Shown here: positions 35,142 through 38,791 of the stretch, piece after piece | Layout of the letters: every line of letters begins with the position of its first letter | Numbering within the stretch: the stretch's first letter is position 1 | IMG/VR virus record: IMGVR_UViG_3300027777_000023 | Span: 32,001-96,000 of that record | Length of the DNA: 64,000 nucleotides | DNA from: a virus | Strand: one strand, 5' to 3' | Notes under the pieces: model-generated | What the model was told of the DNA's origin: nothing | Seen by the model: the letters and a program-made list of their open reading frames with translations, nothing else | Database searches by the model: none | Program-made: the position numbers and the translations under genes

Positions 35142-35471
35142 ATGACCACTGAAAACAACAACTCCGCAGAAATCATCAACACAGCAGCAACAATCGCAAC
35201 TAACATGAACAAGTACACAGTAGAAATCGCAGACAACACCGGACACAGCACTTTCGCAGATCTCGACATCGAGACGGCGACCGAAAACATTCTCGCTAAT
35301 GCTGAGAAGAAAGCTCATTGGGTTTACATCAACGGCGAAAAGTTTGAGTTTGAAGGTAGCAATCATCGCAGCAAGGCAAACGTGCAAAAGCTTCAGCAGC
35401 AGCTGCAGGCTGTGGAAGATCCTAATATTCTTCTCACCGGCGTGCTTCGCGGCGGCGCAGCGCAGGAATAG
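35142..35471 (+). CDS. Ubiquitin-like protein with C-terminal LRGG plus AAQE extension
   Basis: Small protein ending NILLTGVLRGG-AAQE; JAB and E1 genes downstream; start may be Met22. Confidence 0.75.
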   Translation: MTTENNNSAEIINTAATIATNMNKYTVEIADNTGHSTFADLDIETATENILANAEKKAHWVYINGEKFEFEGSNHRSKANVQKLQQQLQAVEDPNILLTGVLRGGAAQE

Positions 35472-35537
35472 TTCTCATTCACCAGGCGTGAAAAGAGCAA
35501 CGGGTTCGTTCTAGTCTAGAGCGCGCCCAGCAAAACT

Positions 35538-35575
35538 AGCCCCTAGGGATTAACCTCTCTAGGGGCTTTTTATTT
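35538..35575 (+). terminator. Intrinsic terminator after the Ubl gene
   Basis: AGCCCCTAGGGA/TCTCTAGGGGCT stem then TTTT. Confidence 0.85.
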
Positions 35576-35590
35576 ATATTTATTCTCTAT

Positions 35591-37771
35591 ATGAACTTTA
35601 ATTTACCTACATTTAAAAAAATCACAAAAGAGTTTGCAGAAGCAGCAAAACACGTAAAAAGCGCAGACGTCTCACTTGAAGTGAACAGACGACGCTATAA
35701 TGGTTGGGCAACGCCCGCAGCAGCCGCTGAAGAAGAGTACACATTAGCTTTGATGGATCTGCGGTTTAAGAACATCGATGCAATGTATCGGTACTGCAAG
35801 CACAAGAGTATTCCTCTCGACGGTTTGAATTGCGAGACATCAGCGTCTTTTGTTTTGAGTATATGTTCGCAGACTGTGCATGAAAGAAATCTTTGCCAGA
35901 TTTCCAGTGAGGACGCCAAAGAGTTTAAGTCGCTGAAATTACTGCCAGATAACACACCGCTTGAGCATCGACCCGTTCTGATAAAACGTACTCCATCAGA
36001 GACTACAGTAGGAAACTATACCTATCGTTTTTTAACAGGCTCAAAGAATAGTTGGAGCAGCAGCATCGATATTATTGGTCGGAATGATGAGCCATTGTAT
36101 GACTATCTGGACAAGGGGTTTTATGTTAAGTCTCTGGTTATCGCTAAAGGTACTACGAAGACGAATAGGGTTATTGTGTCGGACGTCTACGACGTAAATA
36201 CTGCGCATGTATTTGCTATGTGCAGCATCCATCCAATCCTAGCAGATATGCTCAGGCAAGGGAGCTTTATCAGCAGCTATGATGCAGAAATGCTTCGATT
36301 AAAGATGCTGAAAAAGATGCCTGAAGGTAAGAAGAAAGATTACCTGAAGGTCGCTGCAGCTATCGACACAGACTATCGCAACAATACAACATTGATTGTG
36401 GTGGGTAAGTTGATAGCTGGTGAGGCAGATAAAACCACAATCAACAATGTCACGTTCACAAAGAACTCTGCAACGTATGAAAATGTGAGCATTGAAGCTG
36501 AGGGGTTGCTTGATCTGGTGTACAGTTCAACTTCGTTCAACTTCAACAGTGAGTTCGATATCTATACTATTGTTGACCTGTATGGCAAGCACATCAGAGG
36601 TACACTAAAGCAGGATAAAGAGCCTGTGGAGACAAAGGCCGAAGGTGGACTAATTCTTGATGAGCATGTTGCTGAGTTGGAAGATCCACTGGCTGATGAG
36701 GAAGAAGACAATACTAAGAAGAAGCAGATGCCTGCATTCAAGGTGAACGGTATTGAGATCACACCCAGCATTAGCACTACCGGGCAACGCTATCTTAATG
36801 ACGTACGCATCAACAAGGAAGAAATAGATCAGGCCATCTATAGGGCAAGTTGCCACAAGACAGCGCATGACTATAAACTATTCCTGAAGTCAATCAGCCG
36901 TATGAGTATCAAATATCATGATATTATTGCGAACGGGTTGAAGGTAAAGATTCATGACTCGATGACACGGGACGAGATGCAAACTGTGGAACCTGGCCCA
37001 GCAGCCCCTGCACTCAAGTTCCATGTAGATCCAGCGGACAAGTATATCAAGATCTCTGTCACAGACGATCGCGGTGTACGAGTGAGCCTTGGCAGGCTTA
37101 TCGGTAAAATCAGGAACATCAATAAGAAAGCAAACGGTAAGCAGTATTACGATAAAGGCGCATATCACCCAAAATGGCGGAATCATGAATGGGCTCGTGA
37201 AATGCTGATCACTGCCTTGGTTGAATCCTGTACGTTTAAGACAAAAGTGTCTGAGACAGTTGTTGACGATCAAGGGGCTGAACAGATCAAAACTTCTGAG
37301 AGAACAGATGTATTGATTACCAGGGAAGACATCGTGGCCCTGATGGGTGTTGTTAATGAGCGCAAGAAAGCTGCTTTGGAAAGGTCCAAGCAATTTCTTG
37401 AAACAGCTGTAAAGATCACAGGAGCAGAACAGATCACGTTCATGGACAAGCCTGCATACAAGGTCAAGGGATCCTTGAGAGAATATGCTGTAGTTATTGA
37501 AACAGCAAAAGTGTACGACTATGAAACAAAACAGTATCGCTGTATTGTAAACAGTCAGCACTATGCAGGCACAGGCTATGACGACATCGCTGCAAGGTTG
37601 TTGGCACTGAAAAACGACAGCATGATGCAAAATGAGATTGGCACACTAGCAGGTGCAGCGCAGCCTGCTGCAGAGAACATACATAACGACTATGCGCCGT
37701 TGCGTGAAGTAGCTGTAAACCTAGAAGAAGTTGCATACAGCAAAGCAATCGAAAAAGCACTAGCGAGTTAA
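35591..37771 (+). CDS. 726-aa protein of the Ubl cassette; C-terminal Cys domain (candidate E2-like)
   Basis: Between Ubl and JAB; C-terminal strand run ending YRCIV then helix DDIAARLLALKND. Confidence 0.7.
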   Translation: MNFNLPTFKKITKEFAEAAKHVKSADVSLEVNRRRYNGWATPAAAAEEEYTLALMDLRFKNIDAMYRYCKHKSIPLDGLNCETSASFVLSICSQTVHERNLCQISSEDAKEFKSLKLLPDNTPLEHRPVLIKRTPSETTVGNYTYRFLTGSKNSWSSSIDIIGRNDEPLYDYLDKGFYVKSLVIAKGTTKTNRVIVSDVYDVNTAHVFAMCSIHPILADMLRQGSFISSYDAEMLRLKMLKKMPEGKKKDYLKVAAAIDTDYRNNTTLIVVGKLIAGEADKTTINNVTFTKNSATYENVSIEAEGLLDLVYSSTSFNFNSEFDIYTIVDLYGKHIRGTLKQDKEPVETKAEGGLILDEHVAELEDPLADEEEDNTKKKQMPAFKVNGIEITPSISTTGQRYLNDVRINKEEIDQAIYRASCHKTAHDYKLFLKSISRMSIKYHDIIANGLKVKIHDSMTRDEMQTVEPGPAAPALKFHVDPADKYIKISVTDDRGVRVSLGRLIGKIRNINKKANGKQYYDKGAYHPKWRNHEWAREMLITALVESCTFKTKVSETVVDDQGAEQIKTSERTDVLITREDIVALMGVVNERKKAALERSKQFLETAVKITGAEQITFMDKPAYKVKGSLREYAVVIETAKVYDYETKQYRCIVNSQHYAGTGYDDIAARLLALKNDSMMQNEIGTLAGAAQPAAENIHNDYAPLREVAVNLEEVAYSKAIEKALAS

Positions 37772-37773
37772 CC

Positions 37774-38199
37774 ATGAATTACATGAGCAAGGCCCTTGCC
37801 TCTGAGCTGCTTAAAGCTTCAGAGATCTGCAAGCATCGTGTAGAGGAAGAAGGCGGACTCATTCTCAATCGTGATGATGAGTTCGTCTTCGTTCCTGTAC
37901 AAAACATATACAAGGGAACACCAACAGCAGCCGGATTGTATGAGACAGAACAATCTGACTTTACTGGCAAGGTGTTCCCTTTGTTGAAGGAGGGCTATAA
38001 GTTCTATGCGAGCTTTCATACCCATCCTTCATTCAGTCCTAACCCTAGCGGACTAGACCTAAACGTCTTGTTCCAGGGATTTAAACATAACTACATCTAC
38101 GCACCAAGACCCGAAACCTTCAGCTATACAACCTGGGGAGTTGAGGACTCACAATTCACACAATACTTCAATCGTAACACACTATATGCCGTTCAATAA
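37774..38199 (+). CDS. JAB/MPN+ (JAMM) metalloprotease
   Basis: N-terminal EEGG and exact HxH-x7-S-x2-D (HTHPSFSPNPSGLD). Confidence 0.9.
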   Translation: MNYMSKALASELLKASEICKHRVEEEGGLILNRDDEFVFVPVQNIYKGTPTAAGLYETEQSDFTGKVFPLLKEGYKFYASFHTHPSFSPNPSGLDLNVLFQGFKHNYIYAPRPETFSYTTWGVEDSQFTQYFNRNTLYAVQ

Positions 38200-38791
38200 A
38201 ATCGCAATCGTCGGAGCAGGCGGAATCGGAAGCAACCTGCTAGCAATCTTGTTTGACTATGGCTTCAATCGCAAGCAGTTCGACTATGCTAGTCTAGATA
38301 TTGATATTTGGGATAATGATGATGTATCAATCTCGAATCTTCTCCACCAGAACTTCAAGCTTGATGACATCGGTAAGTACAAGGTAGAAGTATTAGAAGA
38401 CAAGTATGCCGTTAATGGTGTCAAGAAGCGCATGACTGAGAAAGAGTTTAAAAAGTACGATCTCATATTCAGTTGTGTTGACAGTATGACGTTCCGTAAG
38501 GCATTGTATGAATATGGCTGGAAGAATGACTGGGCAAAGAGCAAAGACAAGTTCTGGATTGACGGTAGGTGCACAAGCAGGCAAGGTGCATTGTTTAATT
38601 CAGAGCTTCCCAAAGATCAATTGTTGCCCTACATTGATGACTCGGTGGAAGAAGGCGGCTGCTTGCTAGCATATGAGAAAGAACAAAATATTAGTCATAC
38701 GTTGCCAACAATTGTAGCAGGTATGATGGTGCAGACGTTCCTCAACAAGCTCAGAGGACAAAGAACGTTTAAAATGATCTTTATGGTCTAA
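38186..38791 (+). CDS. ThiF/E1-like activating enzyme
   Basis: GAGGIGS, D.D.V..SNL.HQ, IGK.K, CVD, IDGR, single distal Cys GGCL; ATG 38186 preferred. Confidence 0.9.
   Translation: MPFNKIAIVGAGGIGSNLLAILFDYGFNRKQFDYASLDIDIWDNDDVSISNLLHQNFKLDDIGKYKVEVLEDKYAVNGVKKRMTEKEFKKYDLIFSCVDSMTFRKALYEYGWKNDWAKSKDKFWIDGRCTSRQGALFNSELPKDQLLPYIDDSVEEGGCLLAYEKEQNISHTLPTIVAGMMVQTFLNKLRGQRTFKMIFMV

What the first reader, a model, noticed from the sequence alone, without database searches (positions are those of the whole stretch)
35142..38791. Phage-encoded ubiquitin-like conjugation cassette: Ubl, large Cys-domain protein, JAB, E1
Seen: four co-oriented genes. A small protein ends in LRGG followed by a 4-aa cap (AAQE). 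A 726-aa protein follows, then a JAB protease with a complete E..HxH-x7-S-x2-D site, then an E1/ThiF enzyme with the ATP-binding motifs and one distal Cys (GGCL) but no CxxC pairs. Established: JAB enzymes expose and recycle Gly-Gly ends, and E1s adenylate them. Bacterial Ubl-E1-E2-JAB operons (Bil/Bub, PRTRC-type, Cap2/Cap3) conjugate proteins, and some block phage assembly. Inference: this phage carries its own protein-tagging system, used to modify host or virion proteins or to counter host Ubl defence. No thiamine, Moco or sulfur-relay gene is in the window, which argues against a plain ThiS/ThiF sulfur carrier. The Ubl gene has its own candidate -10 (TAAAAT, ~35114) and a terminator behind it, fitting an excess of tag over enzymes.
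Basis: partly seen in the sequence, partly recalled or inferred. Interest (0 to 1): 0.93.

Follow-up and report, generated by a model that had tools for sequence, protein, structure and literature searches.

The report
Phage-borne ubiquitin-like tagging gene cassette
A family of large uncultured lake and marine phages carries a conserved four-gene set (a small ubiquitin-like protein ending in Gly-Gly, its activating enzyme, a trimming protease and a new 700-residue protein with a probable E2-like domain) that most likely lets the phage attach a protein tag to other proteins, something so far known only from cells.

Summary
Four co-oriented genes lie at 35142-38791. They encode a 109-aa protein ending LRGG+AAQE, a 726-aa protein, a JAB/JAMM protease and a ~200-aa ThiF/E1 enzyme.

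- **Conservation.** The same four families sit together in 25 of 27 distinct phage loci, on contigs up to ~215 kb. The other two loci lack only JAB. Gene order is permuted between clades.
- **Gly-Gly end.** The GG is invariant. Most homologs end exactly at GG. Two complete JAB-less genomes have uncapped GG.
- **Catalytic residues.** The JAMM residues, the E1 adenylation residues and one E1 Cys are invariant.
- **Sulfur relay.** The 189.6-kb genome has no rhodanese or cysteine desulfurase.

Best reading (~0.6): a phage-encoded Ubl conjugation cascade with an E2/E3-hybrid-like protein. The target is unknown and conjugation is not shown. A sulfur-carrier role is not excluded. It is not a member of PRTRC, Bil, Bub or CBASS, although the E1's nearest relatives are PRTRC ThiF. 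The scan had also noted this stretch in an overlapping window.

The parts
35142..35471 (+). Ubl precursor (109 aa): disordered N-terminus, beta-grasp-like core at residues ~24-100, invariant Gly104-Gly105, 4-residue cap AAQE
   Evidence: ORF. In 12 close homologs the GG is invariant and the tail varies. GG is invariant in all 27 distinct loci. The AF2 model has b-b-a-b-b-a-b order at pLDDT 57.5. Weak fold hits are almost all Ub/SUMO/PB1/UBX/MoaD/ThiS.
35457..35468 (+). Codons of the C-terminal cap (AAQE), predicted to be removed by the JAB protease
   Evidence: Cap length is 0-10 residues and its sequence varies among homologs. Lake strain variants change A106E while the GG codons change only synonymously.
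35538..35567 (+). Intrinsic-terminator-like hairpin (12 bp, 7 GC, T-run) between the Ubl gene and the enzyme genes
   Evidence: Found. A hairpin sits at the same position in L002 (323-351) and L003 (5248-5276), with differing stem and loop letters.
35591..37771 (+). 726-aa protein of a new family ('BIG'): variable N-terminal half, conserved block at residues 391-450 with invariant Cys421, C-terminal E2-like domain with invariant Cys651
   Evidence: 295 representatives in 1.8 billion proteins, all metagenomic. Invariant residues are R146, D174, C421, G627, Y632, C651 and D676. Conservation profile. AF2 pLDDT 90.1. No Pfam, NCBIfam, PHROG or PADLOC family. No PDB sequence or Foldseek match.
36761..36940 (+). 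Conserved middle block of the 726-aa protein (residues 391-450); invariant Cys421 at codon 36851-36853, at the end of a helix
   Evidence: Highest column conservation together with the C-terminal domain. Invariant C421. Secondary structure. No fold match.
37322..37660 (+). Probable UBC/RWD-like (E2-like) domain of the 726-aa protein (residues 578-690): long helix, four-strand meander, loop with invariant Cys651 (codon 37541-37543), helices
37774..38199 (+). JAB/JAMM metalloprotease (141 aa), start 2 nt after the stop of the 726-aa gene
   Evidence: Pfam Prok-JAB E 2.8e-7. PADLOC JAB models. E26, H82, H84, S92 and D95 are invariant in 25 loci.
38186..38791 (+). Minimal E1/ThiF-family adenylating enzyme (201 aa from ATG 38186; overlaps the JAB gene by 14 nt)
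   Evidence: Pfam ThiF E 5e-20. The profile hits NAE/UBA3, MccB, UBA1, UBA5, SAE2, Cap2 and ThiF over the Rossmann half. Invariant residues include G10, G12, G13, D43, D45, N51, Q55, K66, D99, R104 and C159. The nearest annotated relatives are PRTRC ThiF, 34% identity.

Best explanation
The cassette is a phage-encoded ubiquitin-like protein conjugation pathway.

**Shown**
- A beta-grasp-type small protein with an invariant C-terminal Gly-Gly.
- A JAMM protease and an E1-family adenylating enzyme, each with intact invariant catalytic residues.
- A new ~700-aa protein with two invariant cysteines.
- Strict linkage of these genes across many phage genomes.

**Inferred steps**
1. JAB removes the AAQE cap to expose Gly105.
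2. The ~200-aa E1 adenylates the Gly-Gly end and probably takes it as a thioester on Cys159.
3. The Ubl passes to Cys651 in the E2-like C-terminal domain of the 726-aa protein.
4. That protein acts as an E2/E3 hybrid. Its variable N-terminal half chooses the target, and Cys421 may be a second relay or catalytic residue.
5. The Ubl is joined to a lysine of a host or phage protein, and JAB can reverse or edit this.

In this clade the terminator hairpin after the Ubl gene would give more tag than enzyme. The cassette lies among replication and recombination genes, so it probably acts in the early or middle part of infection.
For: - **Linkage.** The large protein, the Ubl and E1 co-occur, co-oriented, in 27 of 27 distinct loci, and JAB in 25 of 27. 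Gene order is permuted between clades and the flanking genes differ, so the four genes are the unit.
- **Gly-Gly end.** GG is invariant. Caps occur only where JAB is present. Two CheckV-complete genomes with no JAB anywhere encode uncapped GG.
- **JAB role.** Most uncapped loci still keep an intact JAB, which points to a role beyond maturation.
- **E1.** The adenylation residues and Cys159 are invariant.
- **Large protein.** The two most conserved blocks each hold an invariant Cys. The C-terminal block has the helix/four-strand/Cys-loop/helix order, and its weak fold matches are dominated by UBC/UEV/RWD domains, including a chain of the Citrobacter Bub complex.
- **Sulfur relay.** No rhodanese or Aminotran_5 in the 189.6-kb genome, while the controls ring in 13-14 of 14 genomes. 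The large protein has no PP-loop or other sulfurtransferase family.
- **Strain variation.** Lake strains keep GG through synonymous changes while the cap changes.
Against: - No conjugate, thioester or target has been observed.
- The E1 is shorter than ThiF/MoeB and appears to lack the N-terminal segment that carries the Arg finger in MoeB. The MoeB comparison is from my own knowledge and was not tested.
- JAB+Ubl+E1 trios also serve sulfur transfer in cells, and host sulfur donors could be used.
Confidence: 0.6

Rival explanations
1. Sulfur-carrier pathway. The E1 adenylates the Ubl and a host persulfide donor converts it to a thiocarboxylate. The 726-aa protein, through its two invariant cysteines, then uses that sulfur to thiolate a nucleic acid, nucleotide or cofactor. 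JAB matures the carrier or releases an adduct, as Mec+ and QbsD do.
For: - The E1 is of ThiF/MoeB size, and ThiF/MoeB models are among its hits.
- JAB+Ubl+E1 trios in sulfur metabolism are described by Iyer et al. 2006 (PMC1779556).
- Two invariant Cys fit persulfide relay chemistry.
- The cassette lies among DNA-metabolism genes.
- A PRTRC locus whose ThiF is the nearest E1 relative has a DndC-like sulfurtransferase nearby.
Against: - No rhodanese or cysteine desulfurase in the genome.
- No PP-loop, radical-SAM or known sulfurtransferase family in the 726-aa protein.
- ThiF and MoeB equivalog scores are far below their cut-offs.
- The fold hints for the Cys651 domain point to UBC/RWD.
Confidence: 0.17
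2. Self-directed system. The Ubl is activated only to be joined to, or to work with, the 726-aa protein itself. It would act as a covalent regulator, an assembly chaperone or a switch of an enzyme of unknown activity, and no other protein would be tagged.
For: - The large protein is strictly linked with the Ubl and E1, also in JAB-less loci and in L050.
- Invariant R146 and D174 in the N-terminal half suggest a further active site.
- Phage lambda TAPI/TAPK shows that a Ubl plus JAB pair can work without wide conjugation (PMC1779556).
Against: - It would not need an E2-like Cys domain.
- The N-terminal half varies much more than the two Cys blocks, as expected for a partner-recognition part.
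- There is no evidence either way on the products.
Confidence: 0.12
3. C-terminal activation for non-protein chemistry, of the MccB/PaaA type. The E1 adenylates the Gly-Gly end to make a peptidyl-nucleotide or another C-terminally modified product.
For: MccB and PaaA are among the PDB matches of the E1 profile.
Against: - Those matches are generic to the Rossmann half, and eukaryotic E1s score equally.
- The substrate here is a folded ~75-residue domain with the Ubl hallmark GG, not a short peptide.
- JAB and the E2-like domain would have no role.
Confidence: 0.04

Closest known systems
Bacterial Bil (BilABCD) ubiquitin-like conjugation systems
   Same: The four roles match: a Ubl with a C-terminal Gly, an E2-type Cys carrier, a JAB/JAMM protease and an E1. 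There is no separate E3, and the E2 is thought to pick the target directly (PMC11601596).
   Different: - Here the system is phage-borne, not a host defence.
- The E1 has ~200 aa in a single domain, whereas BilD has the IAD-AAD-CYS architecture. The PADLOC BilD hit is insignificant (9.8 bits).
- The E2-like domain is the tail of a ~700-aa protein of a new family and shows no sequence link to BilB.
PRTRC (ParB-related, ThiF-related cassette) of plasmids and ICEs
   Same: - The nearest annotated relatives of the E1 are PRTRC ThiF proteins: up to 34% identity and the best NCBIfam model.
- JAB lies immediately upstream of the ThiF gene, and a small protein and a mid-sized protein lie before them.
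   Different: - The E1 scores 54 bits against a cut-off of 144.75.
- The Ubl, the 726-aa protein and JAB show no similarity to the PRTRC partners.
- No ParB gene is linked, and the setting is a phage, not a plasmid.
Bub (6E/DUF6527) pathways
   Same: Ubl, E2, E1 and a JAB-type peptidase that trims the Ubl. A chain of the Citrobacter Bub complex (9eav_D) is among the weak fold matches of the C-terminal domain.
   Different: Bub works through oxyester (serine) intermediates, its E1 lacks a catalytic Cys, and it has the DUF6527 serine protease (PMC11601596). Here both the E1 and the E2-like domain keep an invariant Cys.
Large eukaryotic E2/E3 hybrid enzymes (UBE2O, BIRC6)
   Same: A UBC-type Cys domain embedded in a large protein whose other parts bind the substrate (from my own knowledge). 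This is how the 726-aa protein would work.
   Different: No sequence relation. The fold similarity is only weak. The second invariant Cys421 block has no counterpart.
JAB-linked sulfur carriers (CysO/MoeZ/Mec+, QbsE/QbsC/QbsD, TtuB/TtuC)
   Same: A GG-ended beta-grasp carrier, sometimes capped and trimmed by JAB, activated by a ThiF/MoeB-type E1 (PMC1779556; details from my own knowledge).
   Different: No rhodanese, desulfurase, sulfhydrylase or PP-loop partner in the cassette or genome. The partner is instead a new protein with an E2-like domain.
Phage lambda/T1 tail assembly proteins TAPI (Ubl) and TAPK (JAB+NlpC/P60)
   Same: The only well-known Ubl plus JAB pair in phages (PMC1779556). 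The JAB has a weak PHROG tail-protein hit (E 0.0028).
   Different: That pair has no E1 and no Cys carrier, and it lies in the tail module. Here the cassette lies among replication genes and has an E1.

Membership tests
E1 / ThiF-MoeB-UBA adenylating superfamily | Rossmann-type GxGxxG ATP loop and a family-level profile match | tested here: met
   Pfam ThiF 72 bits against cut-off 28. GxGGxG is invariant. The profile hits NAE, UBA1, UBA5, SAE2, MccB, Cap2 and ThiF.
E1 / ThiF-MoeB-UBA adenylating superfamily | Catalytic Asp after the fourth strand, and a Cys in the crossover-loop region for an acyl intermediate | tested here: inconclusive
   D99 and C159 are invariant and lie 60 residues apart. 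This is close to the ThiF/MoeB spacing as I recall it. PDB alignments stop at position ~119, so equivalence of the Cys was not shown.
JAB/JAMM metalloproteases | E...HxH-x7-S-x2-D metal site | tested here: met
   E26, H82, H84, S92 and D95 are invariant in 25 loci. Pfam Prok-JAB is above its cut-off.
Ubiquitin-like beta-grasp modifiers | C-terminal Gly-Gly at the end of the fold, free or exposed by trimming | tested here: met
   GG is invariant in 12 close homologs and in all 27 distinct loci.
Ubiquitin-like beta-grasp modifiers | Beta-grasp fold | tested here: inconclusive
E2 / UBC superfold (UBC, UEV, RWD) | Helix, four-strand meander and helices, with the catalytic Cys in the loop after strand 4 | tested here: inconclusive
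E2 / UBC superfold (UBC, UEV, RWD) | Sequence-profile match to an E2 family, and the HPN motif | tested here: not met
   No Pfam, PADLOC, NCBIfam or PDB-sequence hit to any E2. There is no HPN before C651.
PRTRC system | PRTRC_ThiF above the curated cut-off | tested here: not met
   54.3 bits against 144.75. A true PRTRC ThiF scores 213.8.
PRTRC system | Partner proteins PRTRC A/B/C/E/F and a linked ParB | tested here: not met
   No NCBIfam hit for the Ubl, the 726-aa protein or JAB. No similarity to the partners in an Alteromonas PRTRC locus. ParB was not searched in the genome.
Bil system | BilD-type E1 (IAD-AAD-CYS, ~450 aa or more) and BilB E2 | tested here: not met
   The E1 has ~200 aa in a single domain. 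The BilD model scores 9.8 bits, E 0.069. No BilB hit.
Bub system | DUF6527 serine protease, and an E1 and E2 without catalytic Cys (oxyester chemistry) | not tested
   DUF6527 was not searched. The invariant Cys in the E1 and in the E2-like domain argues against the Bub chemistry described in PMC11601596.
CBASS Cap2/Cap3 | E2-E1 fusion protein with a CD-NTase as substrate | tested here: not met
   The E1 stands alone. PADLOC E1-E2 models match only its Rossmann loop region (E 1.5e-5 or weaker). No CD-NTase was seen in the cassette, and the genome was not searched for one.
ThiS/ThiF and MoaD/MoeB sulfur carriers | Equivalog-level match, and sulfur-relay partners (rhodanese, desulfurase, thiazole or MPT synthase) | tested here: not met
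   adenyl_thiF scores 35 bits against 275, and MoeB 22 bits against 266. No Rhodanese or Aminotran_5 in the 189.6-kb genome.

The most novel reading that the evidence does not exclude
Tailed phages of about 180-215 kb carry a complete, self-contained ubiquitination-like cascade built around a new E2/E3-hybrid protein with two catalytic cysteines. They use it to tag host proteins, for takeover or to disable host defences, or their own proteins during infection. This would be the first protein-conjugation system of a virus of prokaryotes. It would also be a fourth lineage of prokaryote-type ubiquitination machinery beside Bil, Bub and Cap2/Cap3.
Probability: 0.45. Interest if true: 0.9.

Novelty: new variant of a known kind. 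Interest (0 to 1): 0.78.

Why it matters
Ubl conjugation in prokaryotes has so far been shown only as a host weapon against phages (Bil, CBASS Cap2, probably Bub). A conserved conjugation cassette on the phage side would reverse that picture.

- **New questions.** Whom does a phage tag, and does tagging hijack, destroy or protect?
- **A simple E1.** At ~200 aa this is a very small E1 paired with a Ubl, which would help in asking what the minimal activating enzyme needs.
- **A new protein family.** The large protein has a confident predicted structure (pLDDT 90) and no known relative, so it may hold a new way of choosing substrates.
- **Easy to test.** All four genes are small enough to synthesise and assay in E. 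coli.

Tried and rejected
**Searches that found nothing**
- Near-identical or protein-level search for the cassette, the 726-aa protein and a distant homolog (L004) in 50,697 phage records: no match.
- Pfam, NCBIfam, PHROGs and PADLOC on the 726-aa protein, whole and in three pieces: only a sub-threshold DUF7737 hit. No paper mentions DUF7737. It rings in four control genomes, but I had no way to fetch those loci.
- Profile of 125 homologs against PDB sequences: nothing.
- Foldseek of the pLDDT-90 model against PDB: nothing. BFVD gave two unnamed viral proteins.
- ESM Atlas on the whole protein and on the C-terminal part: no usable lead.
- Search for stand-alone copies of the C-terminal domain: only fragments from short contigs.
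- Genome collection scan with the large-protein alignment: no hit with the single usable pattern. The E1 scan did find the cassette on MAG contigs.

**Readings I rejected or left open**
- PRTRC partner homology was tested and rejected.
- The 344-aa downstream protein as a fifth component: rejected. It is absent from five distant genomes that carry the cassette.
- Expression: two lake metatranscriptome runs hold the stretch. They are contigs with even cover and may contain DNA, so this does not show transcription.
- The sigma-70 promoter at ~35114 is not supported.

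
Full report
**What is in the window**

The window is bases 32001-96000 of a 189.6-kb IMG/VR virus record that CheckV rates 97% complete. 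No cultured phage is close to it. The DNA polymerase reaches only 22-28% identity to any of 50,697 phage records, and the cassette finds nothing there.

All four ORFs exist as described.

| Gene | Coordinates | Product |
|---|---|---|
| Ubl candidate | 35142-35471 | 109 aa, ends VLRGG-AAQE |
| Large protein | 35591-37771 | 726 aa |
| JAB | 37774-38199 | 141 aa |
| E1 | 38141-38791 | ~200 aa |

- The real E1 start is ATG 38186, judged from homologs.
- The last three genes abut or overlap: a 2-nt gap, then a 14-nt overlap.
- Upstream lie a UDG-fused family A polymerase, an HNH-AP2 endonuclease and a GP88-family protein.
- Downstream lie two unknown proteins, a RecA-like protein and further recombination genes.

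**The three recognisable parts**

*JAB.* It passes the Pfam Prok-JAB cut-off. Its E...HxH-x7-S-x2-D site is invariant in 25 distinct loci.

*E1.*
- It matches Pfam ThiF at 72 bits.
- A profile of 15 homologs hits the whole E1 superfamily in the PDB (UBA3, UBA1, UBA5, SAE2, MccB, TcdA, Cap2, ThiF, Uba4), but only over the Rossmann half.
- The ATP loop, the D-x-D, N51, Q55, K66, D99, R104 and a single Cys159 in a G-[GS]-C motif are invariant. There are no CxxC zinc pairs.
- At 195-207 aa it is shorter than ThiF or MoeB.

*Ubl.*
- It has 12 close homologs with an invariant GG and a tail of variable length and sequence behind it.
- Its AlphaFold model is of low confidence (pLDDT 57.5). Residues 25-99 nonetheless form strand-strand-helix-strand-strand-helix-strand, the beta-grasp order.

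**The cassette is a conserved unit of a group of large phages**

The 726-aa protein has 295 representatives at E up to 0.001 among 1.8 billion cluster representatives. Of the 150 best listed, 124 have 550 residues or more. The ten I looked up are metagenomic and sit on contigs of up to about 210 kb.

Pattern scans of IMG/VR gave 40 loci. I called ORFs and built iterated HMMs for the four proteins. Counting the window, this gave 27 distinct loci.
- The large protein, the Ubl and E1 are present, co-oriented and adjacent in 27 of 27. JAB is present in 25 of 27.
- The window's clade (window, L002, L003) has the order Ubl, large protein, JAB, E1. The distant clade, with about 20% identity in the large protein, has large protein, Ubl, JAB, E1.
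- Flanking genes differ between the clades. The 344-aa downstream protein of the window is absent from five distant genomes. The four genes are therefore the functional unit.
- The same cassette lies on a 204-kb contig binned with a Bacteroidales MAG. A large-protein plus E1 pair lies on a contig binned with a Micrarchaeota MAG.

**The Gly-Gly end and the role of JAB**

- Across all loci the GG is invariant.
- Most Ubls end exactly at GG.
- The two distinct JAB-less loci encode uncapped GG. Their genomes are CheckV-complete at 215 and 198 kb and hold no Prok-JAB anywhere, whereas two other cassette-bearing genomes searched in the same call do.
- Cap removal is therefore one job of JAB. Most uncapped loci also keep an intact JAB, which points to a second job such as deconjugation.
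- Lake strains of this phage change the cap (A106E) while both Gly codons change only synonymously.

**The 726-aa protein**

- It matches no Pfam, NCBIfam, PHROG or PADLOC family. The exception is a recurrent sub-threshold hit to DUF7737 at residues ~600-657.
- It matches no PDB sequence.
- In an alignment of 125 members, R146, D174, C421, G627, Y632, C651 and D676 are invariant.
- Conservation is concentrated in residues 391-450 (around C421) and 601-690 (around C651). The N-terminal 390 residues vary much more.
- The AlphaFold model is confident: pLDDT 90.1 and pTM 0.73. Foldseek finds nothing in the PDB and two unnamed viral proteins in BFVD.

*The C-terminal domain.*
- It reads as a long helix (578-610), four short strands (613-643), a loop with C651, then helices (664-679).
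- In the exhaustive VIA-align search, ten rows are confined to residues 589-696. Eight of them are UBC-superfold proteins:

|---|---|
| Vps23 UEV | 4.4 |
| VPS37A | 4.2 |
| Tsg101 UEV | 4.0 |
| Citrobacter Bub complex chain 9eav_D | 3.7 |
| Ubc9 | 3.7 |
| E2S | 3.6 |
| RWD domain | 3.5 |
| FANCL | 3.4 |

- The second look adds kinetochore RWD domains, FANCL and a chain of a bacterial E1-E2-Ubl complex.
The invariance of C651 and the fold rows are the partial test of that idea.

**Against a plain sulfur carrier**

- The genome has no rhodanese and no class V aminotransferase, while the controls ring in 13 and 14 of 14 genomes.
- ThiF and MoeB equivalog models score far below their cut-offs.
- The large protein has no PP-loop or other sulfurtransferase signature.
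- This does not exclude the use of host sulfur donors. JAB-linked sulfur carriers are known (PMC1779556).

**Relation to known systems**

- *PRTRC.* The nearest annotated relatives of the E1 are PRTRC ThiF proteins of plasmids: up to 34% identity, with 122 plasmid records matched. In an Alteromonas PRTRC locus JAB also lies directly before ThiF. The Ubl, the large protein and JAB show no similarity to the PRTRC partners, and the E1 fails the PRTRC_ThiF cut-off.
- *Bil.* It shares the four roles, but its E1 is a multidomain protein (PMC11601596). Its PADLOC models do not match.
- *Bub.* It uses serine oxyesters and a DUF6527 protease. Here both carriers keep a Cys.
- *Literature.* I found no paper that describes a phage-borne Ubl, E1, E2-like and JAB cassette. 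Viruses of Asgard archaea were reported to carry E1-like genes only.

**Expression signals**

- A 12-bp GC-rich hairpin with a T-run follows the Ubl gene at 35538-35567. It recurs at the same position, with different letters, in L002 and L003.
- In the distant clade the Ubl gene sits between the large-protein gene and JAB without such a gap.
- The proposed -10 box is not above chance.
- Lake-water metagenomes and two metatranscriptome runs hold the stretch. This shows a freshwater habitat but not transcription.

**Verdict**

The most likely function is protein tagging through E1 Cys159 and Cys651 of a new E2/E3-hybrid-like protein, with JAB for maturation and reversal (confidence about 0.6). 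The sulfur-carrier reading is the main rival at about 0.17.

I file the cassette as a new variant of the known Ubl-E1-E2-JAB kind. What is new is its place on the virus side, its minimal E1 and the large protein family.

Noticed in passing
window 33826-34365: The HNH-AP2 endonuclease gene between the DNA polymerase and GP88 genes is polymorphic. One contig of a lake RNA-library run joins 33850 to 34359 and skips 508 bases, as expected for a mobile homing endonuclease.
   Followed up: no
L051 4635-6164; L052; L056: Contigs of Marine Group II archaeal MAGs carry a 71-aa homolog of the phage Ubl (ADxTGH[ST] motif, ends GLVGG plus one residue). It lies directly before a 410-429-aa ThiF-family E1. 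In L051 it sits next to a methylmalonyl-CoA mutase fusion, so it looks chromosomal.
   Followed up: partly
L050 2869-7142: A 50-kb contig binned with a Micrarchaeota MAG has a large-protein homolog (710 aa) fused in operon with a 194-aa E1. A 131-aa Ubl-like ORF ending KIKGG lies 1.2 kb downstream. My HMM detected no JAB there.
   Followed up: no
L016 6979-7800; L021 7521-8327; L023 6967-7656; L029 6530-7309: Several distant phages have an extra ORF of 229-273 aa between the Ubl and JAB genes. It has no significant Pfam match, only faint HTH hints.
   Followed up: partly
L047 (Kolpuevirus 'frurule', OQ198718.1) 3343-5642: A cultured crAss-like phage has a 338-aa ThiF-family gene (annotated thiamine biosynthesis protein, 25% identity to this E1). 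It lies directly after a 'metalloprotease domain' gene in its replication module. This may be an analogous pair.
   Followed up: no
window 37661-37768: The 726-aa protein of the window's clade has about 35 extra C-terminal residues (691-726, two helices). Nearly all other family members end at a conserved T-L and lack them.
   Followed up: no
L061 (Alteromonas plasmid pAMEDUM8_300) 8201-9982: In a PRTRC locus, a 593-aa DndC/PAPS-reductase-like protein lies 460 bases after the ThiF gene. A second PAPS reductase gene lies 5 kb further on.
   Followed up: no
window 38795-40171: Two proteins with no family match (112 and 344 aa) follow the E1 with 3-nt gaps. They are kept in L002 and L003, except that the 112-aa gene has no ORF at its place in L003, and they are absent from distant genomes that carry the cassette.
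   Followed up: partly
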